Origin: a virus
IMG/VR virus record: IMGVR_UViG_3300027736_000026
Span: 55,675 to 119,674 of that record
Length of the DNA stretch: 64,000 nt
Strand: one strand, 5' to 3'
Both the position numbers and the translations under genes were made by a program. Numbering within the stretch: position 1 is the stretch's first letter; each line of letters starts with the position of its first letter. Shown here piece after piece: positions 20,115 through 29,477 of the stretch. The notes below the pieces were generated by a model. It was not told where the DNA came from and ran no database searches. It saw nothing but the letters and a program-made list of their open reading frames with translations.

Positions 20115-22082
20115 TTACAAACTAACTGGCTCGCATTTCCCTCCAGCGCAAGCAGCTTCTTGAGTATGACTTGTCTCGTCTTCATCCTCAATAAGTTTGG
20201 TGAAATCAACCTGTGACCATTCTGCCTGAAGCTTATTGAACTTTTCTTCGTCTTCAGGGGTTATGACGGCTTCCATTGGAGCTTGTTGATAAATTTTATC
20301 TCCAGAGTAAGGCAGTAATGAAACAGCAGTAAAGTATTCTTGATTCTTGTAAAGGTATTCTGTAACAGTTTTCCATTCGTCATCTTTAACGATAACTGTG
20401 CAACTAACTGAATGATTTAATGGCTTCTTGTTGGCTTCGGTTGTCCCGCAATTTACCCAGTTGGTTTGGGTCAACTTAATAAGGTCTAGATGTTCAATGG
20501 CATTAAGTCCAGACTTAATCTTGACATTCTCATCTACTTCAATAGGGAATGTAATAACATCATCTACCTTGTTTGCGCTCCAAACGCTCTCTTCGCAAGC
20601 ATACTCATTAAACATCTTGAAAAACTTATAGACGTTATCTTCCTTGTTGACTTGAATTCGGCGGAAGTATTTGCGAGCGTGATGAGGGTGAATTCCAGAA
20701 GCAGCAGACAATACAATTGAATTCGTTCCTTCTGGCTTAATACAAGTTACTCTAGAGGCTTGATTGACTCCAATCTTCTTGGCCCATTCAATATTAGTAT
20801 TAACAGATACCTTGGCAGCTTCTCTTTGATATTCTGGATTAAAAAGAATATCTGGATTATCCATCATTCCAGTAATAGAAACCCCAAGCAAGGCTTCTTG
20901 TTCAGTTAATTCTTCTGATGTATGACCAAGATAAGGGAAAGATGTATACGCTGCTTGTAATGTGCCTATCAATGAAGCCGCCCAAGAAGCGTTTTTAAAA
21001 TCTTCTAGAGACTTAACTTTAGCGCCATTAATAGAAGTGAGGTTACAGAACTGGAATCCACAACGTCCATCTTTAGTAATAGGAATAAATGAGATTTCAA
21101 AACAAGGATTTAAAAGCTGATCCTCGTCAACAACATATAGGAATCCCGGCTCACCAAACTCTTTAGTCTTATTAATGAGAGCTTCAAACTCTGCATAAGA
21201 AGTCTTGCCGCGAATAATAATTGCTGAATTATTTGACCTAGCTCTCTGGGGGTTGTCAAGGAACCAGTCGCCAGTCTTGGCGTTCATCATGTCCTTGTCT
21301 TGAGCATCAAAAATAACACTGCAAGCAGAACGGCGAATGCCTCCTGACAGGACTGCGTCAGCGCAATGCATTAAAATATCATAGGCATTGACGGTCTTAA
21401 GGCGAGTTTGATTGCTGTCTTCAATAATAGTGTCAAGCAAGAGCTTAACCTTGAAATGGCAGTTCTTGAGCCCCTTGTAACCGGGAGCTTTTCCGCCGCC
21501 AGTCTTGAGCTTTGCGCCCTTTGGGCGAATTTTACTATAATCAAAAACAATCTTGCGCCCAGAATAAGCAGTGTTCTTGAAATAACAATTTAATAGAGCT
21601 TCAATAGAGTCGCCCCAACCTTCAATATTATCAGTTACAGTATAAGTGATTACCGCTCCTGTCTTATCTTTAGCGTTAACGAGATCAGGGAGCCGATTGA
21701 GGAGCTTATCAGTGATGCCAAATCCAACACCAGTACCACAAAGAAGAGTATAAAAGGACTCAGCAAAAGAACGGATAGAATCAATATGGCGCACAGCACA
21801 GTTAAAGATTCTTCCATTATGCGCTTCAACAGCCTTGCCGCCGAATTGCATACTACGCATTGAAGGAGTGACTTTCCTTTCTCTAACCAACTCAAAAGCT
21901 TTTGAGATTTCATATTTGTCTTCTTTTGGTAGGTATTTGAATTTCTTCAAGTGCATGGTCTCGACTCTTGTAACAGTCTCGTCCCATGTTTCTCTACGCT
22001 TCTTCTTTTCATCGTATTTTGCGTATTTTGTAACAAACGTAAAGTTCGCCATTTCATCTAGGAAGTTAATAGCCTTGCTCAT
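20115..22082 (-). CDS. nrdJ: Class II (adenosylcobalamin-dependent) ribonucleotide reductase
   Basis: RETWDETVTRV, PSMR, IFNCA, GTGVGF, GGIRRSA, NPCFEI, FCNL, CIKPEGT, C-terminal CAGGKC. Confidence 0.93.
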   Translation of the reverse strand: MSKAINFLDEMANFTFVTKYAKYDEKKKRRETWDETVTRVETMHLKKFKYLPKEDKYEISKAFELVRERKVTPSMRSMQFGGKAVEAHNGRIFNCAVRHIDSIRSFAESFYTLLCGTGVGFGITDKLLNRLPDLVNAKDKTGAVITYTVTDNIEGWGDSIEALLNCYFKNTAYSGRKIVFDYSKIRPKGAKLKTGGGKAPGYKGLKNCHFKVKLLLDTIIEDSNQTRLKTVNAYDILMHCADAVLSGGIRRSACSVIFDAQDKDMMNAKTGDWFLDNPQRARSNNSAIIIRGKTSYAEFEALINKTKEFGEPGFLYVVDEDQLLNPCFEISFIPITKDGRCGFQFCNLTSINGAKVKSLEDFKNASWAASLIGTLQAAYTSFPYLGHTSEELTEQEALLGVSITGMMDNPDILFNPEYQREAAKVSVNTNIEWAKKIGVNQASRVTCIKPEGTNSIVLSAASGIHPHHARKYFRRIQVNKEDNVYKFFKMFNEYACEESVWSANKVDDVITFPIEVDENVKIKSGLNAIEHLDLIKLTQTNWVNCGTTEANKKPLNHSVSCTVIVKDDEWKTVTEYLYKNQEYFTAVSLLPYSGDKIYQQAPMEAVITPEDEEKFNKLQAEWSQVDFTKLIEDEDETSHTQEAACAGGKCEPVSL

Positions 22083-22135
22083 ATAGGGATAATAAATTAC
22101 ACTGACAATAAACTGCTTTGGGAAATCAAAAAAAA

Positions 22136-22480
22136 TTAGAGTACGACTCTATTCGTATGCTTTGCGCCACGACGTTTCTTGGAATATTCTTTTAGAGACT
22201 TCTCTTTAACAGGGTCTACTCCACGTTCTTTTTCTCTCTTTTCAGAAAGATCTTTCGAAGCATCCCACATGTCACCAAGATTATAATTCTTTCTCTTAGT
22301 TTTTTCAACAAAATCTTGCTCAGAGTTTGCATCTATCTGAGTATCTACACTTACATTAGGAGATAGGAAAACTCTTTGCCATTTTATCTCGCCTTCGCTG
22401 TAGACCTTCTCTGAGTCAATCGAAAGAAAAATTTCTTTGTACTCTTTTGTCTTGGGATTTTGAAAAATGTAAACGGGCAT
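22136..22480 (-). CDS. FmdB-like regulatory protein lacking the Zn cysteines
   Basis: MPVYIF start, WQRVFLSP. Confidence 0.5.
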   Translation of the reverse strand: MPVYIFQNPKTKEYKEIFLSIDSEKVYSEGEIKWQRVFLSPNVSVDTQIDANSEQDFVEKTKRKNYNLGDMWDASKDLSEKREKERGVDPVKEKSLKEYSKKRRGAKHTNRVVL

Positions 22481-22481
22481 A

Positions 22482-23561
22482 TTAAAAGAGAGACAAAATT
22501 TGTTCCGTGGTCTTTTTGACGGTGAACTGCTCCTGAAGCTTCAAACCTTCTTGATTTACTTTGCTTCGCTTGACTCTGGCGATAGCTTTTTCGCAGCCTT
22601 CAATGAAAGCATCTTCAGACCATTCAAAAATATTTCCTTGATTGAACTCTTGTCCTTCATGGAAAAACATATTGTCATAAGCGGGAGTCTTCCCAGATGC
22701 TTGCAACATAACAGAGTTCTTGTCGTTTGCCCAAGCAGTATATGCGTGAGCATTAACAATTACGGAATGCTTGCCGATTGCAACAGATTGGAACTCTGGT
22801 AAAGCCCATCCTTCACCGCCAGAAGCTCCAAGGATGACATCTGCTGAATTTAGAAATTCATTGTAAAGATTGGTCTGAGCCATGTGGCCGAAGAAACTAA
22901 CATTAAAGAATTTCTTTCCTTCCACCGCCATGTTGATCAGCTTGGTGTTATCTTCTTGAGAAATGAAGTTGTTATAAAGAGCGCATTGCAAAGAATAATT
23001 ACTATTGTTTGCATACTTATTGACCCATGCACGAATAGCTTTTACATGATGTTTGCGCTTTTCAAACTTACCACAGAGATTAAACGTAACCCTTCCGTCA
23101 TTAAAATACGTTTTGTTTGTGGCTTTAAAATTCTTTGCATCAAAGAACAGGGGTAGATAAGAAGTGTTACCTACCCCATGCTCGTTGAATACCTTCACAG
23201 AATAAGGAGAGGAAACTAATACCTTGTCATTATTTTTTAAGATATTAATTTCAGACTGAGTGAGGGCATCAAGTTCGTGGAACGTAAGGAGAAATTGCCT
23301 GTCACTATAAGACTCAAGTGAACCATTAATATGCCATAATTTAAAAATTGGATCTTTTCTTGAATGATATCGAAGACCTTTCTTCAAACAAGAATTAAAC
23401 CAGTTCTTAAAATCTTCCGTAATCTCTTCCTGCCCGAAGTCAGGAGCGCCAATCATAAATAATGACGGCTCCAACTTCAAAGAATAGATCTCTTTAAGAA
23501 GCTGAATAGAAACCTGACCAAAGCTGGTCGAATTTACTGGAAGATGCAAGGCAAATTTCAT
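22482..23561 (-). CDS. GT-B glycosyltransferase (GT4-like)
   Basis: TSFGQVS, CGKFEKRK, SGGEGWALPEFQSVAIGK. Confidence 0.8.
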   Translation of the reverse strand: MKFALHLPVNSTSFGQVSIQLLKEIYSLKLEPSLFMIGAPDFGQEEITEDFKNWFNSCLKKGLRYHSRKDPIFKLWHINGSLESYSDRQFLLTFHELDALTQSEINILKNNDKVLVSSPYSVKVFNEHGVGNTSYLPLFFDAKNFKATNKTYFNDGRVTFNLCGKFEKRKHHVKAIRAWVNKYANNSNYSLQCALYNNFISQEDNTKLINMAVEGKKFFNVSFFGHMAQTNLYNEFLNSADVILGASGGEGWALPEFQSVAIGKHSVIVNAHAYTAWANDKNSVMLQASGKTPAYDNMFFHEGQEFNQGNIFEWSEDAFIEGCEKAIARVKRSKVNQEGLKLQEQFTVKKTTEQILSLF

Positions 23562-23562
23562 A

Positions 23563-23928
23563 TTAGATCAAATCATCATCTGCGCTAACTTGATTAACCG
23601 GAGACTTAACTAAAGTTTTAACCCCTGCTGGGCGAGGGGCAGTATTTGTCGTCGGGGCGGCAACAGGAGCAACCTGAGTTCCTGTCAAGGTTTCGTATTG
23701 AGCCTTCTCCATAAAGATCTGAAAGTCAGGAGAGCCGTCGCTCTTCTTCTTGTTATTTGGGAAAACAATAATCTTAACTTCATCAAAGTTATCCTTGATG
23801 TCCTTAAGGCGGAATTTCCCGGTTAGATACTCAGAACCACTAGAGCCTTTACGGCTCCAAAGTGCGCCAAGTTCTCGTCGAATTGTATTGCTTTCAGTAT
23901 TGCTAGTATTAGGAGTAGGAGTAGGCAT
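23563..23928 (-). CDS. DUF736-like protein, candidate ssDNA-binding protein
   Basis: LGALWSRK..SEYLTG...VFPN.KK.DGSPDF, Pro/Ala linker, acidic DDDLI C-terminus. Confidence 0.55.
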   Translation of the reverse strand: MPTPTPNTSNTESNTIRRELGALWSRKGSSGSEYLTGKFRLKDIKDNFDEVKIIVFPNNKKKSDGSPDFQIFMEKAQYETLTGTQVAPVAAPTTNTAPRPAGVKTLVKSPVNQVSADDDLI

Positions 23929-23978
23929 AATTTATGCAAATAAATACTAGCTACTCGCGAAGGAAAAGTAAAGACAAT

Positions 23979-24566
23979 TTATACAAAATCTTGCATCTCT
24001 TTGCTCTCAATTTTAGTCTTTAAAAATTCAAGAGCTTTTTTGTGCAAAGTGATTGCTGTCTGATATGTGACTCCAAGTTCTTTTGATATATTCTTCCATT
24101 TGCGGGAGGACTTGTCTCCGTAATATCTTAACAGTATTATTTTTTCAAGTCTTTTGTCTTTCATTTGACAAAGTAGATTAAAGATGTAATCTTTCTTCTC
24201 TTCAAAATCATTTGACTGTTGACAGAGATTTGCTGCTAATGTCTTTTGATTTTCATCATCAAGAGAAATTGTCCATTTGTGTTTTGTAATGTTTGTTAAA
24301 CATTTGTATTTAACATGATTAGCCAGCCAAGTCGAAAACTTACTGTTCTGATTTTCATCAAAATTAAGAGTACATTTATAAATAATGTAATCTTTTTCAT
24401 TGACAAGATCTTCTGGGCTTATTCCTCTTTCTTGAAGAATTTTATTGTACTTCTTAAAAATGTCAAAACAAAGAGGAGAATGCCTTTCTATAAGAGTTTT
24501 TAATGATTGGTTGCATTGATGAAGTTTTACCTTCGTTACAAGTTCGTTGTCAGTTGAGTCTATCAT
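23979..24566 (-). CDS. RNA polymerase sigma-70 family factor (phage-encoded)
   Basis: Region 2 (LIERH...FDENQNSKFSTWL), ISLD, region 4 HTH (IILLRY..WKNISKELGVTYQTAITLHKKALEFLK). Confidence 0.82.
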   Translation of the reverse strand: MIDSTDNELVTKVKLHQCNQSLKTLIERHSPLCFDIFKKYNKILQERGISPEDLVNEKDYIIYKCTLNFDENQNSKFSTWLANHVKYKCLTNITKHKWTISLDDENQKTLAANLCQQSNDFEEKKDYIFNLLCQMKDKRLEKIILLRYYGDKSSRKWKNISKELGVTYQTAITLHKKALEFLKTKIESKEMQDFV

Positions 24567-25182
24567 GTGTATAAAGCTTACCTTCTTTTATAAAAATGTC
24601 AAGGGTTTTTTTGACTAAATCTTTTAAATATTTTTCAGGCCATCCATGCCTCCAACAAAGAGAATAATCAGCATTTTTTCTAAGAAAAGGATCATTTCTT
24701 CTCTCATCATCGTTTGCAGGAGCGCAAACTGAACCGTCTTCAAAAAATTTTTCAACATAAATTAAAAACCCTTTATTTTCTCCCTTTAACCAGACGACTT
24801 CATCACTAGGATATTCGAAGTGTCTAATATCAGTTACACAAAAGATATCTGACTGTTTAAAATTTTCAGATCTTTTATAAGCTTCGATTTCAGACTGAAG
24901 CTTTTCTATCCAATACCTACCTTTAGTATTTTGCCGCATTGTCCTTGCGTGATTTACTAACTCATGTCTTACTTTGTTTTTGTCTTCAGTAGAACAATTA
25001 AAAATATCAACATTGTATTTTTCTAAGATAAAAGAAAACAAGTCTTTTTTTAAAGAATCTGCCAAAGCAAATCTAATTACGTTTACTCCAAAGTCTTCTA
25101 AGCAAATTTCTTTTAGTAATTTATAGTAAGTATCCTTACCGACAGTAGCAGCACCTGCAATACCTAGAAACTGGTTAGACAT
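24550..25182 (-). CDS. Deoxynucleoside monophosphate kinase
   Basis: GIAGAATVGKDT, FALADSLK, R..L, YWI, VTDIRH..E. Confidence 0.8.
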   Translation of the reverse strand: MSNQFLGIAGAATVGKDTYYKLLKEICLEDFGVNVIRFALADSLKKDLFSFILEKYNVDIFNCSTEDKNKVRHELVNHARTMRQNTKGRYWIEKLQSEIEAYKRSENFKQSDIFCVTDIRHFEYPSDEVVWLKGENKGFLIYVEKFFEDGSVCAPANDDERRNDPFLRKNADYSLCWRHGWPEKYLKDLVKKTLDIFIKEGKLYTHDRLN

Positions 25183-25189
25183 AGTAAAG

Positions 25190-25650
25190 TATAGTATTTA
25201 AGAAAGGCTGGTTTGTAAAAGGAACTGCCAGCTTTATGATTTTTCTTTGAGTTAAAATAGGAAAGGCTTGTCATCTCTAAATTAAAATAGAGATTTCAAA
25301 ATAATCAAGAGTTACCCATTTCAATCCTTCGCAGTCTGTTTATCAGATTTTCGGCCCTCTCAAGAGAGCCTAGCTAATGACTAACTCTTTGTTTAAGTTC
25401 TTTACCTTTGCGGGTGGGATTTCTCTTAGGACGGAACTGCCAGCTTTTTCTTTTGAGAAAAATGAGGTTGCAGCTTTTTCAAAGTCTTCTCCTTGCGGAA
25501 CGTCGCCTTTTCCCGAAATGGCGTTGGATTTCTTAGATCCAGTTGACTAGGGTCTTTTTACGGGCCTGATGTCTCTGATGCGTTTGAACTGGGATATCCC
25601 CAGTAGGCTGTTCACCCAGATAAAGAACTACCTCATCCTAGTCATGAGGT
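25190..25650 (-). ncRNA. Candidate large structured non-coding RNA of unknown class
   Basis: The longest ORF-free gap in the window; many hairpins, two long-range helices, G-U pairs and a GCAA tetraloop that form only on the minus strand (see findings). Confidence 0.6.
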
Positions 25651-26058
25651 CTTGGTTTTGTCAAAAGTTTTTTCGCGCAAGCCGTTGAAAATTACCAGAA
25701 GGTTCTTGATGTCCTTCTCGCTGATCGAAATTGGGTTGCATCTTTCAGATTCATTTTCAATCAGAGAGCAGTAAGAATTGATTACTTCCGAGATGACGAA
25801 AGAAGTTTTGGGAGAGATGGTCACGCTTTGTTCGTATGCGTCAAACTTCTTAGAGAGAATCCAATAATTATTATTTTTAAAACTAGCCTTTTTTACGATC
25901 CCGTTCTTCTCAAATTCCTCAAGCGCACACAACACGCAAGCCCTTTCAGATTCTGGGTTTTCTGAAATGGTAAGCAGTTTAGTGAAATCGTTCTCACAGA
26001 AACTATCATTCTGAAAGTACCATTGATATAATTTTGTAGACGCATCTGAAATTGTCAT
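25642..26058 (-). CDS. Hypothetical protein
   Basis: Likely start MTISDAST at 26058; the longer track ORF overlaps the divergent gene. Confidence 0.65.
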   Translation of the reverse strand: MTISDASTKLYQWYFQNDSFCENDFTKLLTISENPESERACVLCALEEFEKNGIVKKASFKNNNYWILSKKFDAYEQSVTISPKTSFVISEVINSYCSLIENESERCNPISISEKDIKNLLVIFNGLREKTFDKTKTS

Positions 26059-26099
26059 ATTTAATAATAGAAGAATGCCAGAAAAAGCTCCAAATAAAC

Positions 26100-26128
26100 T
26101 TGACTTTTCTTTCCCGATGTGTGACAAT
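26100..26128 (+). promoter_or_regulatory. Sigma70-type promoter TTGACT-N17-GACAAT, 7 nt before ATG
   Basis: Lies in the divergent gap at the strand switch. Confidence 0.45.
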
Positions 26129-26135
26129 ATTATCC

Positions 26136-26594
26136 ATGAGACTTTCTTGGCATGAATATGGTTGCATGATGGCTCTTGCTGCTTCATCTAGAAGCGAAGA
26201 CCCTCACACCAAAGTCGGAGCTTGCATTTTAAACAAAGAGGGAAGAGTTCTTTCAACCGGCTACAACGGATTGAAAAAAGGGTTCGCTGTCAAAGAGTGG
26301 ATGAAGAAGGAAGAGAATCGTCCAAAGAAGCGAGAGATAATGATCCATGCGGAGACTAACGCCTTGTCATTAATAAGGAAAGGAGAGGCAGAGAGCATAT
26401 GCTTGACAATTTCTCCTTGCTTTGCTTGCGCCAAGGACATAGTCGCTCATGAGATACAAAGAGTATTTTATATCAAAGAATACGAGCAATGCAATAAATT
26501 CAAAGAGGTATTTGATTTTTATAAAATCCATTACCAAGAGTTAAAAGAAGAAAACATCTCCAAGATCAAATCTCATTTACAATCATGGCTATAG
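26136..26594 (+). CDS. dCMP deaminase
   Basis: SWHEY, RSEDPHTKVGACI, TGYNG, HAETNAL, SPCFACAK; start at MRLSW. Confidence 0.92.
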   Translation: MRLSWHEYGCMMALAASSRSEDPHTKVGACILNKEGRVLSTGYNGLKKGFAVKEWMKKEENRPKKREIMIHAETNALSLIRKGEAESICLTISPCFACAKDIVAHEIQRVFYIKEYEQCNKFKEVFDFYKIHYQELKEENISKIKSHLQSWL

Positions 26595-27070
26595 AATCAA
26601 TAGTTCCTGTTAAATTCGTAAAGCTAAATAATCTAGCGATTACTCCAACTCGTCAAAAGACTGGAGACGCAGGTTACGACCTTTACGCAACTGAAAACGT
26701 TAGGGTCAAACCGATGAGTCGCGCTCTCGTTAGCACTGGCCTTTCAATCGAAGTGCCCGAAGGATACTACGCGAGAATTGCTCCTCGCAGTGGCCTAGCA
26801 GTTAAGAATGGTATTGATGTCCTTGCTGGAGTTGTAGATTCTAGTTATCGTGGAGAAGTTAAAGTTGTATTAATGAATCTAAGCATTGACCTTGCAAGTA
26901 TGATGGGGCTTACTCCAAATATTGCTGGTTCAAATTTTGATTTCAATATCAAAGCTGGAGATCGAATTGCTCAGTTAATTATTGAAAAGTGTCACGCTAT
27001 TGATTGGCAGCAAGTTGAATCCTTGTCTACAACCGAAAGAACGGGCGGATTTGGAAGTACAGGAGTGTAA
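26585..27070 (+). CDS. dut: Trimeric dUTPase
   Basis: AGYDL, IAPRSGLA, GVVDSSYRGEV, GDRIAQL, RTGGFGSTG. Confidence 0.96.
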   Translation: MAIESIVPVKFVKLNNLAITPTRQKTGDAGYDLYATENVRVKPMSRALVSTGLSIEVPEGYYARIAPRSGLAVKNGIDVLAGVVDSSYRGEVKVVLMNLSIDLASMMGLTPNIAGSNFDFNIKAGDRIAQLIIEKCHAIDWQQVESLSTTERTGGFGSTGV

Positions 27071-27140
27071 CTCTGTCACTGTGACAGCCAATTTTGTCTC
27101 AGAATGTCTCAAATAAGCAGTAAAAATGCTCTTTTTAAGA

Positions 27141-27157
27141 TTGGCACGGTTCTTGCT
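27141..27157 (+). promoter_or_regulatory. Sigma-54 (-24/-12) promoter
   Basis: TTGGCACGGTTCTTGCT matches the TGGCACG-N4-TTGCW consensus exactly, 14 nt before the hsp20 ATG. Confidence 0.8.
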
Positions 27158-27171
27158 AGAAGAAATCGCTT

Positions 27172-27510
27172 ATGATATATTATATTCAAACAAGTAATGG
27201 TCAAACTCAAAAACTAGATCTTTATAACAAAGATTCATTCTCGCTAGATAAAATGAGCGGCGAATATGTTTCTGAAATTGAAGTGCCGGGTTTTTGTAAA
27301 GAAGATTTAGACATTACAGTGAAGAGGCTAGAGCTTGGTGATTCTGTTACAATTAAAGCCTCCAATACGAAGAGAAAAGCTGAAGCTTCGCTATGGATTC
27401 CTTCCGCAGCGGACGCTTCTCTTTTGAGGGCTTCTGCTGAAAACGGACTACTTACATTGTCGGTTCCTGTTAAGGGAGCTTATCAGCCGAAGAAAGTTAA
27501 AGTAACTTAA
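27172..27510 (+). CDS. Small heat-shock protein (Hsp20/alpha-crystallin domain)
   Basis: EIEVPGFCKEDLDITV, ASAENGLLTLSVP, terminal KKVKV (IxI-like). Confidence 0.8.
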   Translation: MIYYIQTSNGQTQKLDLYNKDSFSLDKMSGEYVSEIEVPGFCKEDLDITVKRLELGDSVTIKASNTKRKAEASLWIPSAADASLLRASAENGLLTLSVPVKGAYQPKKVKVT

Positions 27511-27516
27511 GTTACT

Positions 27517-27543
27517 CCCCGCCTTTGGGCGGGGTTTGTTTTT
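27517..27543 (+). terminator. Rho-independent terminator
   Basis: CCCCGCC-TTTG-GGCGGGG followed by TTTGTTTTT. Confidence 0.85.
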
Positions 27544-28203
27544 ATGCCTTACCTAAGCGCCTCAATTCCAACTCAAACAGCATACTTAGACACTTCATTT
27601 CTTGAAGATTCTCCGCCAAGACAAACGGGGAAATGGATTGCTGTTGAAATATTTTCTATAGTTTCAATAACAAGGAGATGCTTGTTATTTAATGTAATGA
27701 GCGAATGCGGGGCGCAATTTGCTAGAGTCCCAATTCATTATTTATCAAAGATTCCAGACCCAAAAACAAACTTTGAACTGCACTGGCTTCAATTGTGGGA
27801 TAGTTTTAGTTACTATTTTACTATTCAAAGATTTGACTATCTTAAAAATGCTTCAGCTTATATGTTGCTTAAAGATAAGACTAAACATGTAGCTAAGTAT
27901 ATTTTCACAATTGATTGGTGTAATGGAGAGGATTATAATTTAGGATACTCTGAAATCTCAAACGGACACAAGTGCGCTCATATTTTTTGGGGAGAAGGCG
28001 GGCAGATGTTCGCTCAACCAAATAATAGAATAGTTTGGCGCGATTCAGGAGCTTTCATTGGGTCATCGTTACCTCCAGAGTCAAAAACATGGAGACCTTT
28101 CAGCCAAGAATTCTCTTGCGAAGGGCTAGCTCACAAGTGGACTGCTGGCGATGAAGAGCTTGTGTATTATGAGTTCGAGGTTGAGCCAGAACTAGCCAAA
28201 TAA
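27544..28203 (+). CDS. Hypothetical phage protein
   Basis: 219-aa ORF; GAQFARVPIH, LQLWD, FTIDW, HKCAH, AQPNNRI look like conserved motifs. Confidence 0.75.
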   Translation: MPYLSASIPTQTAYLDTSFLEDSPPRQTGKWIAVEIFSIVSITRRCLLFNVMSECGAQFARVPIHYLSKIPDPKTNFELHWLQLWDSFSYYFTIQRFDYLKNASAYMLLKDKTKHVAKYIFTIDWCNGEDYNLGYSEISNGHKCAHIFWGEGGQMFAQPNNRIVWRDSGAFIGSSLPPESKTWRPFSQEFSCEGLAHKWTAGDEELVYYEFEVEPELAK

Positions 28204-28243
28204 ACATGATAAAATAGAATGTGTAATATAATATATAGCTGAG

Positions 28244-28507
28244 ATGACTGCTGAAGAAAATAAGATTTTTGAAGATGCTCTTTTACTTCAGGAAACTACT
28301 GCTTGGTGGATTAATAAGACCGCTGAAGTTCTCGATGAAATAGATAGAGTTGAACGAAAAGGATTTTCTTTAGCAAGAGAAAAAAAGTTGGAATCTCTTT
28401 ATAAAAATCTTGAAGTCTTTTTGGCTAGAAAAAGGATAGAGGAAGACAAGATTACCGAAATTTTGTCTAGGATTGATAAAATAAAGGATAAAAAATGCCA
28501 AAACTAA
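28244..28507 (+). CDS. Hypothetical helical protein
   Basis: ORF track; preceded by the GTGTAA motif. Confidence 0.6.
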   Translation: MTAEENKIFEDALLLQETTAWWINKTAEVLDEIDRVERKGFSLAREKKLESLYKNLEVFLARKRIEEDKITEILSRIDKIKDKKCQN

Positions 28508-28656
28508 AAAGAGAAAAATTCTACATGATAATCTCAAACAAAAACAATTACACATATGGAGCTTTTCCATATACTAAAGAAGGAAAGATAGCAGCTAAAG
28601 ATTACATTCAAGAAAAATCAAACAAAAATTTGCAGTTAAAAATTAAAATCAAATAA
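28495..28656 (+). CDS. Small basic hypothetical protein (53 aa, not in track)
   Basis: MPKLKREKFYMIISNKNNYTYGAFPYTKEGKIAAKDYIQEK...; fills the gap. Confidence 0.55.
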   Translation: MPKLKREKFYMIISNKNNYTYGAFPYTKEGKIAAKDYIQEKSNKNLQLKIKIK

Positions 28657-28657
28657 T

Positions 28658-28804
28658 ATGCCCGTACCAAACAAACGCAAGAACGAAGACGCAAAGAAAT
28701 TCATGGAGCGTTGCATGAGCGAACTTCCAAAGAGCGAATTTCCAAACCCAAAGCAGCGTGTCGCCGTCTGCCTAAATCAAGAAAAGAAGAAGCCGAAGAA
28801 GTGA
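28658..28804 (+). CDS. Small phage protein (48 aa, not in track)
   Basis: MPVPNKRKNEDAKKFMERCMSELPKSEFPNPKQRVAVCLNQ; MP.P....E....F..RCM...EFP...QR.AVC pattern seen in phage proteins. Confidence 0.7.
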   Translation: MPVPNKRKNEDAKKFMERCMSELPKSEFPNPKQRVAVCLNQEKKKPKK

Positions 28805-28811
28805 TTATTTT

Positions 28812-29477
28812 ATGAAGTTAGTTATTTGTATGCCCGGAAACAGTTTTTCCGGGTCTTTTTTTGACTCATTCATTGAATTTTACCATTGGTGCCTCCACAA
28901 TGGAATTACCGTCTTCCTGTCAAGGAAAGAATCATGTAATATTTACTACGTTAGGAACATGTGCGTCGGCGGCAACGTCCAAGCTGGCAAGCAGCAAAAG
29001 CCTTGGGGCGGAAAGCTCGATTATGATTACATGTTATGGATAGACTCTGATATCATCTTCAAACCTGAAGACTTTATTAAACTTCTTCAGATGGAGGTTG
29101 ATATTGCGTCTGGATTATACTTAATGGCAGACGGCTCAAGAGAACCCAAAAAGTTTGCGACTGTTGTGGATTGGGACGAAAAGTTTTTTGAAAAAAATGG
29201 TTACTTTAAGTTCGTTGAGAGAGAAGATATAGTAGGCGAAACAAAACCCTTCGTAGCTGACTACACTGGTTTTGGTTTTATGCTAATTAAGAAAGGCGTA
29301 TTTGAGAGTTTGGATTATCCTTGGTTCCAGCCGATCTTCTTTAATATTGGTAACGCTCACGACTTCTGCATGGAAGACGTTGGCTTCTGTTTGAAAGCAA
29401 AAGAAAAAGGTCACAAAGTATGGATAAATCCACAAGTAATAGTGAAACACGAAAAGAAGATCCTTCTGAGTACATGA
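28812..29477 (+). CDS. GT-A fold glycosyltransferase-like protein
   Basis: YDYMLWIDSDIIF, YTGFGFMLIKKGVFE, PWF, EDVGFC, V.H.K. Confidence 0.8.
   Translation: MKLVICMPGNSFSGSFFDSFIEFYHWCLHNGITVFLSRKESCNIYYVRNMCVGGNVQAGKQQKPWGGKLDYDYMLWIDSDIIFKPEDFIKLLQMEVDIASGLYLMADGSREPKKFATVVDWDEKFFEKNGYFKFVEREDIVGETKPFVADYTGFGFMLIKKGVFESLDYPWFQPIFFNIGNAHDFCMEDVGFCLKAKEKGHKVWINPQVIVKHEKKILLST

What the first reader, a model, noticed from the sequence alone, without database searches (positions are those of the whole stretch)
25190..25650. Unclassified ~460-nt multi-domain structured RNA between the dNMP kinase gene and the strand switch
Seen in sequence: this is the longest ORF-free gap in a window where genes usually abut. 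On the minus strand it shows (i) a long-range helix, AGUUCUUUAUCU-GGGUG (plus 25613-25629) with CACCC-gcaa-AGGUAAAGAACU (25396-25416), 12+5 bp closing a ~200-nt domain; (ii) hairpins inside that domain: ACUGGG/CCCAGU (25588-25604), UGGAU/AUCCA, CGCC..GGCG, UUCC-GCAA-GGAG (25489-25500, GNRA loop) and UUUUUCU/AGAAAAA; (iii) a 5' hairpin ACCUCAU/AUGAGGU (25630-25650) whose loop GACUAGG is complementary to CCUAGUC(A) at 25544-25551, a potential pseudoknot, with a second ACCUCAU near 25462-25468 offering an alternative pairing; (iv) a second domain closed by AAGAGUUA/UAACUCUU (25307-25314 with 25382-25389) containing GGCUCUCU/AGAGGGCC and UCUG/CAGA; (v) a further AUCUCUA/UAGAGAU hairpin (25273-25294). 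At least three helices contain G-U pairs on the minus strand that would be A-C mismatches on the plus strand, which argues for selection on an RNA of that polarity. Established knowledge: phages carry large ornate ncRNAs such as GOLLD and ROOL, but I see no RNase P, tmRNA, SRP or intron hallmarks here. Inference: a new large phage ncRNA (scaffold, ribozyme, anti-defence decoy or cis-switch) upstream of the kinase-sigma factor genes.
Basis: partly seen in the sequence, partly recalled or inferred. Interest (0 to 1): 0.85.

Follow-up and report, generated by a model that had tools for sequence, protein, structure and literature searches.

The report
New large knotted phage RNA gene
The gene-free gap is a real gene for a folded, pseudoknotted RNA of about 410 bases that makes no protein. 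Related uncultured water phages keep it, it matches no catalogued RNA family, and its job is unknown.

Summary
Window 25221-25629 (minus strand) encodes a ~410-nt structured RNA. It has its own sigma-70-type promoter (25635-25664), and its first base opens the closing helix. I found 44 distinct versions (38 full-length) in uncultured aquatic phage contigs. Some come from phages whose neighbouring kinase is only 33-47% identical. On 38 sequences, 46 tested pairs are 97.3% paired, against 26-48% when partners are slid. 30 of the 46 show changes on both sides, against 6-15 slid. Three long-range pairings tie three domains together. G-U pairs fix the polarity as minus.

No Rfam 15 family matches. 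Two core patterns found nothing in 185,579 cellular genomes.

Not confirmed:
- The 5' hairpin (25630-25650) and its proposed pseudoknot. That stretch holds the upstream gene's stop codon and the promoter spacer and -10 box.
- The size: about 410 nt, not 460.

The folding-energy z-score is weak (-1.52). Function is unknown. My best guess is a compact trans-acting early RNA with two identical binding modules.

Earlier agents of this scan reported the same family on other genomes. This window is a further member, not an independent discovery.

The parts
25635..25664 (-). Promoter P1 of the RNA gene: TTGACA, 18-nt spacer, TAGGAT. The -35 box lies inside the 3' end of the upstream ORF. The stop codon TGA (25642-25644) lies in the spacer.
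   Evidence: Consensus scan, 10 of 12 matches. The hexamers are kept while the spacer varies. A -35/-10 pair whose -10 ends 5-10 nt before helix P1 is found in 37 of 38 distinct homologues. The start site is predicted, not mapped.
25221..25629 (-). The ncRNA gene, about 409 nt. Predicted +1 is A25629 (or G25628). The 3' end is not mapped; I place it after the second Y module.
   Evidence: nhmmer and alignments. Covariation. Coordinates. In L192 a tRNA gene follows about 12 nt after the Y2 module. In L257 and L259 the Y2 module is itself a stem followed by a U-run.
25396..25629 (-). Domain 1, 234 nt. It is closed by P1 (25618-25629 with 25396-25407) and P2 (25613-25617 with 25412-25416), with a 4-nt bulge GCAA (25408-25411).
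   Evidence: MFE fold. P1 shows one compensatory pair and one G-U/A-U pair among 17 close relatives. P2 has 2 of 4 tested pairs with changes on both sides. P1 pairs with a different sequence in L199, L257 and L259, read by eye from the alignment.
25588..25604 (-). Hairpin P4 (ACUGGGG / UCCCAGU). It stacks on the short P3 (25605-25607 with 25565-25567).
   Evidence: P4: 5 of 6 pairs changed on both sides, 93.8% paired. P3: 100% paired with 1 compensatory pair.
25561..25564 (-). PKa 5' strand CCCG. It pairs with CGGG (25512-25515) in the loop of P8.
   Evidence: 38 of 38 paired. C-G becomes U-A in 2 sequences, L188 and L205 (pair 87/139).
25568..25571 (-). PKc 5' strand CAUC. It pairs with GAUG (25272-25275) at the start of domain 3.
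   Evidence: 97.4% paired. Three states occur: CAUC/GAUG, CCAC/GUGG and CAAC/GUUG. 2 of 4 pairs changed on both sides. RNAalifold predicts it independently. It overlaps the last 2 bp of hairpin P16.
25480..25548 (-). Central junction of domain 1. P6 is AGUC 25545-25548 with GACU 25483-25486. P7 is the hairpin 25525-25541 with the conserved loop CUAAGAA. P8 is 25499-25525. P9 is the GCAA-loop hairpin 25489-25500.
   Evidence: P7: 4 of 4 pairs covary. P8 (AACG/CGUU register): 3 of 4 covary. P6: 6 of 6 pairs covary, 99% paired, in the 21 distant sequences. The window's own P6 and P9 are invariant, so they are inferred by homology and by folding only.
25445..25462 (-). Hairpin P12 (UUUUUCU CAAA AGAAAAA).
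   Evidence: The inner pairs covary with CCUC/GAGG and CCCC/GGGG in distant lineages.
25433..25446 (-). Y1 module AAGCUGGCAGUUCC. Part of it pairs with AGCUG (25471-25475) as helix P10.
   Evidence: Exact repeat of Y2. P10 partners differ by lineage: GCUAG/UAAGC, GUUAG/CUGAC, AACUU/AAGUU, GGCCAG/CUGGUU. These were read by eye.
25417..25421 (-). PKb 5' strand AAUCC. It pairs with GGAUU (25323-25327) in domain 2.
   Evidence: 100% paired in 38 of 38. 3 of 5 pairs changed on both sides (AAUCC/GGAUU, AGUCC/GGACU, AGUUC/GAACU).
25307..25389 (-). Domain 2. P13 is 25382-25389 with 25307-25314, plus UCAUU 25376-25380 with AAUGG 25316-25320. P14 is the hairpin 25353-25370. P15 is the hairpin 25335-25347. 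The PKb 3' strand also lies here.
   Evidence: P13: 8 of 8 pairs changed on both sides. P14 outer 4 pairs: 100% paired. P13b pairs 300/360 and 301/359 covary. P15 covaries within close relatives and is deleted in distant ones.
25274..25293 (-). Variable hairpin P16 (UCUCUA / UAGAGA).
   Evidence: 95.1% paired in 17 close relatives, with 5 of 17 shifted by a mismatch. Other lineages have a hairpin of different sequence and length at this place (L192, L257).
25221..25275 (-). Domain 3. It holds the PKc 3' strand GAUG, then GAC, the X2 stretch (25254-25269), a weak A/U hairpin (25240-25253) and the Y2 module AAGCUGGCAGUUCC (25221-25234).
   Evidence: Invariant from 25221 to about 25263 in 17 of 17 close relatives. 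The module layout repeats that of P10-P12-Y1 in every lineage.
25191..25219 (-). Promoter-like site P2 of the kinase gene: TTTACA, 17-nt spacer, TACTAT. It is not part of the folded RNA. The -10 box ends 8 nt before the ATG at 25182.
   Evidence: The hexamers are kept while the spacer varies.

Best explanation
The gap is a separate gene for a non-coding RNA of about 410 nt, from a family kept by a clade of uncultured aquatic phages.

Shown:
- The sequence and its fold are conserved.
- A sigma-70-type promoter always sits 5-10 nt in front of the first helix.

Inferred:
- Host RNA polymerase transcribes it early in infection.
- The chain folds into three domains. D1 is closed by P1/P2 and has a multi-way junction locked by PKa. 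D2 is a three-branch domain. D3 is a partial duplicate of the P10-P12-Y part of D1.
- D2 docks on D1 through PKb, and D3 docks on D1 through PKc. The result is one compact particle.

Most likely function (inferred, about 45%):
- The particle acts in trans as a stable scaffold or decoy.
- It presents invariant single-stranded A-rich joiners and two identical Y elements to a partner.
- The partner could be a protein dimer, two copies of a host or phage factor, or further copies of the RNA itself, as in RNA-only assemblies.

I put about 0.93 on 'real structured RNA gene of an uncatalogued family'. The confidence figure below is for the whole statement, function included.
For: - Conservation beyond the flanks: 25483-25582 is 100% identical to L003 and L007 and 94% to L010. 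Flanking coding windows are mostly 70-90%, and the kinase protein is 73-78% identical.
- Homologues in distant phages: nhmmer E-values run from 2e-26 to 4e-6, always just upstream of a kinase 33-47% identical. There are 44 distinct versions.
- Covariation in 17 close relatives: 95 pairs, 99.3% paired, 7 pairs changed on both sides against at most 1 when slid.
- Covariation in 38 sequences: 46 pairs, 97.3% paired against 26-48% slid. 30 pairs changed on both sides against 6-15. Covariation score 0.485 against at most 0.134. None of 500 shuffles reach it.
- RNAalifold predicts 48 pairs, 28 of them with compensatory change.
- All three long-range helices covary.
- A promoter is present in 37 of 38 homologues.
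- The downstream gene has its own promoter-like site. In L192 a tRNA gene lies between the RNA and that promoter.
- Single-base indels inside the gap among close relatives argue against coding.
- Y1 and Y2 are the same within a lineage but differ between lineages in at least 7 lineages.
- Contigs from 4 of 4 RNA libraries laid cover parts of the RNA.
Against: - No experiment or raw-read map shows a discrete stable transcript. The laid data are contigs, which cannot show ends, strand or level.
- One contig (X1, 25359-26057) bridges the upstream ORF and the RNA. That fits read-through or DNA carried in the library.
- No terminator is evident after Y2 in the window's lineage.
- MFE z is only -1.52.
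- Nothing identifies a partner. The upstream 138-aa protein has no confident fold match. The kinase has an ordinary NMP-kinase fold.
- The Y1 = Y2 identity could equally reflect DNA-level operators or gene conversion.
- 51 of 80 kinase loci lack the RNA, so it is not essential to that gene module.
Confidence: 0.45

Rival explanations
1. Cis-acting leader or attenuator. Transcription from P1 reads through into the kinase and sigma-factor genes. The duplicated X/Y modules form alternative pairings that set how much read-through or translation occurs.
For: The RNA always heads the conserved block of kinase, a ~200-aa gene (a sigma factor in the window), then ~100-aa and ~360-aa genes. No terminator is seen after Y2 in the window's lineage. 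Repeated short motifs allow alternative pairings: Y resembles the 5' strand of P13 in L199, L200 and L188. An earlier agent's note e1-6045179 raised this idea.
Against: A promoter-like site with conserved hexamers lies between the RNA and the ATG in most lineages. In L192 a tRNA gene and a TTGACA-N18-TATTAT site separate them. In L257 and L259 the RNA ends in a stem followed by a U-run. Three-domain pseudoknotted RNAs of 410 nt are far larger than known leaders (from my own knowledge).
Confidence: 0.17
2. Origin-associated transcript. The RNA primes or activates replication at a bidirectional origin next to the strand switch, as RNA II does for ColE1 or the R-loop transcripts do at T4 oriF and oriG (comparison from my own knowledge).
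For: The gene sits one ORF away from the divergent-transcription point, in the window and in distant loci. The cumulative GC skew of 22-29 kb has its minimum at about 25.0-25.2 kb. Nucleotide-metabolism genes surround it: ribonucleotide reductase, dUTPase and the kinase.
Against: The GC-skew minimum coincides with the gene-strand switch and may only reflect it. Invariant single-stranded joiners and three covarying long-range helices point to a compact folded particle, not an RNA that must hybridise to DNA. No AT-rich unwinding element or iteron array was seen; there are only two Y copies.
Confidence: 0.1
3. A new ribozyme, either self-processing or acting on another RNA, whose pseudoknotted core forms an active site.
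For: About 170 columns of the core are invariant among 17 relatives whose flanks differ by 10-25%. Multiple pseudoknots are present. One lineage has a tRNA directly downstream with no promoter between, so some 3' processing must occur there.
Against: No Rfam ribozyme model matches, even at E up to 10. No conserved cleavage-site signature was found. tRNA adjacency occurs in only 1 of 29 RNA-bearing loci scanned, and host RNase P would explain that processing.
Confidence: 0.08
4. The RNA fold is real, but the twin Y elements work mainly at the DNA level. They would be two operators, 212 bp apart, for a phage regulator such as the upstream 138-aa protein. That protein's specificity would co-evolve with them and control P2.
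For: Y1 equals Y2 within each lineage but differs between lineages. That is the pattern of repressor-operator co-evolution. Y2 abuts the -35 box of P2 in the window. 212 bp is about 20 helical turns. The upstream protein gives weak winged-helix leads only.
Against: The fold matches are not significant: best Foldseek E is 0.4 and Atlas scores are below 0.9. Y is not a palindrome in most lineages. Y2 lies 20-45 nt from P2 in distant lineages. The repeated unit includes an RNA hairpin, and Y1 takes part in the covarying helix P10.
Confidence: 0.1

Closest known systems
GOLLD, ROOL, OLE and raiA: the large 'ornate' orphan RNAs of bacteria and phages (Rfam families; cryo-EM paper 10.1101/2024.12.08.627333 / PMC12286853, of which I saw only the search listing and the start of the abstract)
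   Same: It is a large, multi-domain, pseudoknotted non-coding RNA. It is carried by phages, has its own transcription unit and no known function. In one lineage it sits next to a tRNA gene.
   Different: No sequence or covariance-model similarity. It is smaller, about 410 nt against roughly 580-800 nt for ROOL and GOLLD (sizes from my own knowledge). tRNA adjacency occurs in only 1 of 29 loci. It was not found in cellular genomes. Whether it forms multimers is untested.
tmRNA
   Same: Similar size. Several pseudoknots. The 5' and 3' parts of one domain pair with each other.
   Different: ARAGORN finds none. No Rfam tmRNA model matches. There is no T-arm or acceptor-like end and no tag reading frame. 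Two further domains lie outside the closing helix.
Bacterial RNase P RNA
   Same: An A-rich strand (GAAAUCC or GAAAAGUCC) next to the 3' strand of P2 forms a long-range helix. This loosely recalls the CR-I/P4 region (comparison from my own knowledge).
   Different: Here the partner strand lies outside the P1/P2 enclosure, in domain 2. No RNase P model matches at E up to 10.
ColE1 RNA II and phage origin transcripts
   Same: A promoter-driven, structured RNA of several hundred nt next to a probable origin or strand-switch region.
   Different: Nothing was found here pointing to a hybrid-forming stretch or a processing site. The fold is compact and knotted rather than a row of stem-loops.
Candidate structured RNAs of IMG/VR viruses (PMC10690425; I read passages of the main text)
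   Same: Same data source and same kind of evidence: covariation in intergenic regions of uncultured phages.
   Different: Those candidates are 29-151 nt long, with a mean of 67. At most, fragments of this RNA could be among them.

Membership tests
Any Rfam 15 family | A match to the family's covariance model at or above its gathering score. | tested here: not met
   In the whole window only 2 tRNAs reach gathering score. In 25000-25900 at E up to 10 there are 6 weak rows; the best is 16.7 bits against a cut-off of 70. In 6 distant homologous loci only a tRNA matches.
tmRNA | A tRNA-like domain formed by the two ends, plus a tag reading frame, detectable by ARAGORN or Rfam. | tested here: not met
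   ARAGORN finds 2 tRNAs and no tmRNA. No Rfam tmRNA match.
Group I intron | It interrupts a host gene whose exons flank it, and it matches the group I core model. | tested here: not met
   The gap lies between a complete ORF ending at its stop codon (25642) and a kinase ORF that starts with its P-loop. No RF00028 match at E up to 10.
RNase P RNA | The conserved CR-I to CR-V core, with the P4 pseudoknot inside the P1/P2 enclosure. | tested here: not met
   No RNase P model matches. The long-range helix PKb joins domain 1 to a strand outside P1.
6S RNA | A rod-like, largely double-stranded RNA with a central open-promoter-like bubble. | tested here: not met
   The covariation-supported fold is multi-branched, with three domains. 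No Rfam 6S match.
GOLLD / ROOL | A match to the family model. | tested here: not met
   No match.
GOLLD / ROOL | Frequent placement next to tRNA genes (feature from my own knowledge). | tested here: not met
   A tRNA lies directly beside the RNA in 1 of 29 RNA-bearing loci scanned. The window's own tRNAs are 6 and 16 kb away.
GOLLD / ROOL | RNA-only multimeric assembly. | not testable with these tools
   This needs cryo-EM, SEC-MALS or native gels.
Riboswitch or 5' leader of the downstream gene | It lies within the 5' UTR of the regulated mRNA, with no promoter in between. | tested here: inconclusive
   Promoter-like sites with conserved hexamers lie between the RNA and the ATG in most lineages. 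A tRNA gene lies there in L192. However, promoters are predicted only, and read-through is not excluded.
The uncatalogued phage RNA family reported earlier in this scan (e1-5645226, e1-5684857, e1-5684861, e1-6045179) | Shared sequence, and the same position at the head of the kinase and sigma-factor genes. | tested here: met
   The look-up by sequence shares 43-44 of 116 words with those stretches. I rebuilt the family independently from the window.

The most novel reading that the evidence does not exclude
The RNA would be a new kind of phage-encoded RNA machine. Its three pseudoknot-locked domains and its pair of identical, lineage-specific Y modules would let it do one of three things. It could assemble into an RNA-only multimer. 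It could switch between two strand-swapped conformations. Or it could clamp two copies of a host factor, such as RNA polymerase or a defence protein, during the first minutes of infection. An unrelated RNA takes the same job, in the same genomic slot, in sister phages.
Probability: 0.15. Interest if true: 0.9.

Novelty: new variant of a known kind. Interest (0 to 1): 0.7.

Why it matters
- Large RNAs with intricate conserved tertiary structure are rare. In the past they have turned out to be ribozymes, RNP cores or RNA-only assemblies.
- This one is phage-specific, probably expressed early, and sits at the head of a phage's kinase and sigma-factor genes. It may therefore reveal an RNA-based step of host takeover or of replication control.
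- The family offers ready material for structure work. There are 38 full-length natural variants with clear covariation.
- A second, unrelated RNA occupies the same slot in sister phages. That gives a natural test of functional equivalence.
- Its value is limited for now. No cultured phage or host is known, and there is no direct transcript map.

Tried and rejected
- Known phages: blastn of the gap against 50,697 phage records found no match. tblastn of the 359-aa neighbour found no match. The reductase gave only hits of 42% identity or less, so no cultured relative is known.
- Own genome: none is held for this window.
- A 14-mer of the Y motif in viral contigs returned 118+ stretches. Nearly all were single chance matches. 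That scan was wasted, though the loci later served as negatives for nhmmer (no hit below E 0.08).
- The metagenome scan with a 21-mer found 18 stretches, all from the close group at 85% identity or more.
- Cellular genomes: two core patterns gave 0 matches.
- Mutual information over 26 de-duplicated sequences was dominated by the split between the two groups. It found no further helix.
- A fourth pseudoknot, claimed in an earlier agent's note, did not emerge. I found three.
- Partner for the variable part of Y: duplex scans gave lineage-specific hits. These were the P3 5' strand, the P13 3' strand in L199, L200, L188 and L259, and the PKb 3' strand. None was consistent across all lineages, so I rejected each as a family-wide helix.
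- The reverse complement of Y is absent from the window.
- Upstream 138-aa protein: no Pfam, PHROG or NCBIfam family. The AF2 model has pLDDT 62.8. No Foldseek hit at E of 0.001 or better. Atlas scores are below 0.9.
- Kinase: no PDB sequence relative. Its fold is a generic NMP-kinase, with nothing RNA-specific.
- RNA libraries: parts of the stretch without contig cover (24888-25180 in all four runs) say nothing. Contig ends at 25180-25191 in three runs may be assembly breaks at a variable stretch. I did not lay a DNA run beside them.
- Small word shares in runs X3-X18 were not used as evidence of habitat or expression.
- Literature: searches for GOLLD/ROOL/phage/structured RNA and for R-scape/phage/large structured/metagenom/CMfinder listed no paper describing this RNA. 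I read passages of PMC10690425. Its supplements are closed and may list fragments.
Full report
**Where it lies.** The stretch 25183-25641 is free of credible ORFs. It lies between two minus-strand genes.
- Upstream is an ORF ending with TGA at 25642-25644. It is listed as 181 aa. Alignment with relatives points to a start at M44, giving 138 aa.
- Downstream is a 210-aa P-loop kinase starting at 25182. PHROG names it a dNMP kinase at E 3.5e-9. Its predicted fold is that of an NMP kinase.
- After the kinase come a sigma-70-family factor, a 121-aa ORF, a 359-aa ORF and a 114-aa ORF.
- The strand switch lies one gene upstream of the gap, at about 26188-26584.

**Is it known?**
- Rfam 15 at gathering score finds only two tRNAs in the 64 kb.
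- With E up to 10 on 25000-25900, six weak rows appear. The best is 16.7 bits against a cut-off of 70.
- ARAGORN finds no tmRNA.
- blastn against 50,697 phage records finds nothing.

**Folding energy.** The minus strand folds to -114.1 kcal/mol with z = -1.52; 7 of 100 shuffles fold as well. The plus strand gives z = -0.49. Energy alone does not set the stretch apart.

**Relatives.**
- A search of viral contigs with the kinase gave 12 loci. In 10 of them the gap is 87-99% identical, although the kinase protein is only 73-78% identical in eight of them.
- Along 6.6 kb, the 100-nt window 25483-25582 is the best-conserved piece: 100% against L003 and L007, and 94% against L010. Most coding windows are 70-90%.
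- A kinase alignment reached 80 loci. A profile of the gap then found homologues upstream of kinases only 33-47% identical, with E from 2e-26 to 4e-6.
- A two-block core pattern added further contigs.
- In all there were 96 hits and 44 distinct versions, 38 of them full length.
- 29 of the 80 kinase loci carry the RNA.
- Random viral loci fetched gave no hit below E 0.08.
- Two core patterns have no match in one genome each of 185,579 bacterial and archaeal species.

**Structure.**
- Among 17 close relatives, a 95-pair model is 99.3% paired. It has 7 pairs changed on both sides, against at most 1 when the partners are slid.
- On all 38 sequences I tested 46 pairs in 11 helices that are alignable across the family.
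  - 97.3% of cells pair, against 26-48% slid.
  - 30 pairs carry changes on both sides, against 6-15 slid.
  - The covariation score is 0.485, against at most 0.134 slid.
  - None of 500 shuffles reach the observed values for paired cells, cells changed on both sides, or the covariation score.
- RNAalifold predicts 48 pairs on its own, 28 of them with compensatory change. These include the long-range helix that I call PKc.
- Helix P6 was tested apart on the 21 distant sequences. It is 99% paired, and all 6 pairs covary.
- The 38 rows are related. Much of the signal comes from the split into a close and a distant group, so cell counts overstate the number of independent events. Several helices nonetheless show three or more pair types (P4, P7, P8, P13, PKb, PKc).

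**The model in window coordinates.**
- Domain 1 (25396-25629) is closed by P1 and P2. It holds P3/P4, a junction of P6-P9, and P10-P12 with the Y1 element.
- Domain 2 (25307-25389) holds P13-P15.
- A variable hairpin P16 follows (25274-25293).
- Domain 3 (25221-25275) ends in Y2.
- Three long-range helices tie these together:
  - PKa: CCCG 25561-25564 with CGGG 25512-25515, in the loop of P8.
  - PKb: AAUCC 25417-25421 with GGAUU 25323-25327.
  - PKc: CAUC 25568-25571 with GAUG 25272-25275.
- PKc overlaps two base pairs of P16, so those two cannot both be complete.
- Many G-U pairs would be A-C on the other strand. This fixes the polarity as the window's minus strand.
- Single-base indels among close relatives, and the lack of any ORF shared with distant relatives, argue against coding.

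- The hairpin at 25630-25650 holds the upstream stop codon and the spacer and -10 box of a promoter, TTGACA-N18-TAGGAT at 25664-25635.
- In relatives the two hexamers stay and the spacer varies. The hairpin is not kept.
- The loop proposed to pair with CCUAGUC varies, while its target is invariant.
- The target aligns with the 5' strand of P6, which covaries with a downstream strand in distant relatives.
- The second ACCUCAU and the alternative pairing could not be tested, because that stretch is invariant.

**An independent gene.**
- In 37 of 38 homologues a -35/-10 pair sits with its -10 ending 5-10 nt before the first base of P1. The RNA would therefore start exactly at its closing helix. 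This start is predicted, not mapped.
- Between the RNA and the kinase ATG lies a second promoter-like site. In the window it is TTTACA-N17-TACTAT at 25219-25191, with conserved hexamers and a variable spacer.
- In L192 a tRNA-Gly gene begins about 12 nt after Y2 and before that second promoter.
- In L257 and L259, Y2 forms a stem followed by a U-run.
- Together these make a plain 5' leader unlikely. In the window's own lineage, however, I see no terminator.

**Expression.**
- Eighteen listed runs on record as RNA libraries hold part of a 1.4-kb stretch around the gap.
- I laid four of them. Contigs cover 25189-25341 and 25314-25610 (X2), 25180-25508 (X3), 25191-25352 (X5) and 25359-26057 (X1).
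- Contigs cannot show strand, ends or level, and DNA can be present in such libraries. This is weak support only.
- The X1 contig, which bridges the upstream ORF and the RNA, fits read-through or DNA.

**The twin Y modules.**
- AAGCTGGCAGTTC occurs twice in the window, only in this gap, 212 nt apart.
- The repeat is really a module: an X strand, a small hairpin, an A-rich linker and a Y strand. It is present once in domain 1 and once as domain 3.
- In at least seven lineages the two Y copies are the same as each other but differ from lineage to lineage. Variants include GCUGGCAG, GGAUAAGCAG, GGCAAGCAG, GGUAAGCAG, GGCUGACAG, GAAGUUAAA and GGAAGGCUGG.
- Y1 pairs with its own X1 as helix P10, with a different sequence in each lineage. 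I read this by eye.
- Y2 pairs with X2 in some lineages but not in L192.
- Cis pairing alone does not explain why both copies stay identical. A common partner, strand swapping, DNA-level operators and gene conversion all remain open. Duplex scans gave no family-wide partner.

**Context.**
- The order 'strand switch, ~135-185-aa ORF, RNA, kinase, ~200-aa ORF, ~100-aa ORF, ~360-aa ORF' is kept in distant loci. The RNA-kinase neighbourhood is therefore conserved synteny of one phage group, not proof of a functional link.
- 51 of 80 kinase loci lack the RNA.
- I examined 47 of those 51. I left out four (L220, L221, L224, L236) where the kinase lies too near the locus end.
- Of the 47, 41 have less than 250 nt upstream of the kinase.
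- The other six (L184, L207, L210, L201, L187, L179) have 255-631 nt there. They hold a different conserved sequence with its own terminator-like hairpin and no Rfam match.

**Function.** Nothing computed here fixes it.
- I favour (about 45%) a compact trans-acting early RNA that serves as a scaffold or decoy and presents two identical Y sites.
- A cis-acting control of the kinase and sigma-factor genes gets about 17%.
- An origin-linked transcript gets about 10%.
- A DNA-level role of the Y boxes gets about 10%.
- A ribozyme gets about 8%.
- The evidence for and against each is given in the fields above.

**Novelty.**
- The RNA matches no Rfam 15 family.
- Two literature searches listed no paper that describes it. 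The one large catalogue of viral candidate RNAs that I read in part reports elements of 29-151 nt only.
- Earlier agents of this same scan described the same family from other genomes. This window adds another member and an independent rebuild of the evidence, not a first sighting.
- In kind it resembles the large orphan 'ornate' RNAs. In sequence and architecture it is its own family.

Noticed in passing
L184:1870-2500, L207:1923-2500, L210:2017-2500, L201:2042-2500 (same contig as L011), L187:2135-2500, L179:2246-2500: Six kinase loci that lack this RNA have a 255-631 nt gap in the same slot. The gaps hold a different conserved sequence: shared blocks, and a C-run/G-run hairpin followed by GUGUCUU. 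No Rfam match. This looks like a second, unrelated ncRNA class in the same genomic position.
   Followed up: partly
window 25182-25219; L188, L205, L192, L222 just upstream of the kinase ATG: The kinase's promoter-like -10 box ends only 5-13 nt before the ATG in most lineages, and no Shine-Dalgarno sequence is seen in the window. This suggests leaderless or nearly leaderless mRNAs, which may hint at the host group.
   Followed up: partly
L192:2367-2442: A tRNA-Gly(GCC) gene begins about 12 nt after the RNA's Y2 element, with no promoter between. The two are probably co-transcribed and separated by processing. This was seen in 1 of 29 RNA-bearing loci scanned.
   Followed up: yes
window 25642-26058 (minus strand): The upstream ORF is conserved (32-33% identity in distant phages) and probably starts at M44, giving 138 aa. 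It belongs to no family. The low-confidence model shows a helix followed by a beta-hairpin, with weak, non-significant likeness to winged-helix regulators. The -35 box of the RNA promoter lies in its last codons.
   Followed up: partly
L218:2414-2440 and the same place in most of the main distant clade: A GC-rich hairpin (GAAAGCC, 3-6 nt, GGCUUUC) is inserted in domain 3 of the main distant clade. It is absent in the window group and in L188, L205, L192 and L200. It is an optional expansion segment rather than a terminator, because no U-run follows.
   Followed up: no
window 24483-24582 and 23783-23882: Two 100-nt coding windows, at the kinase/sigma-factor junction and inside the 121-aa ORF, are 88-95% identical to relatives. 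Their surroundings are mostly 69-89%. The cause was not examined.
   Followed up: no
window 22000-29000: The cumulative GC skew has its minimum at about 25.0-25.2 kb, next to the RNA gene and the strand switch. It may mark a replication origin or may only reflect gene orientation.
   Followed up: no
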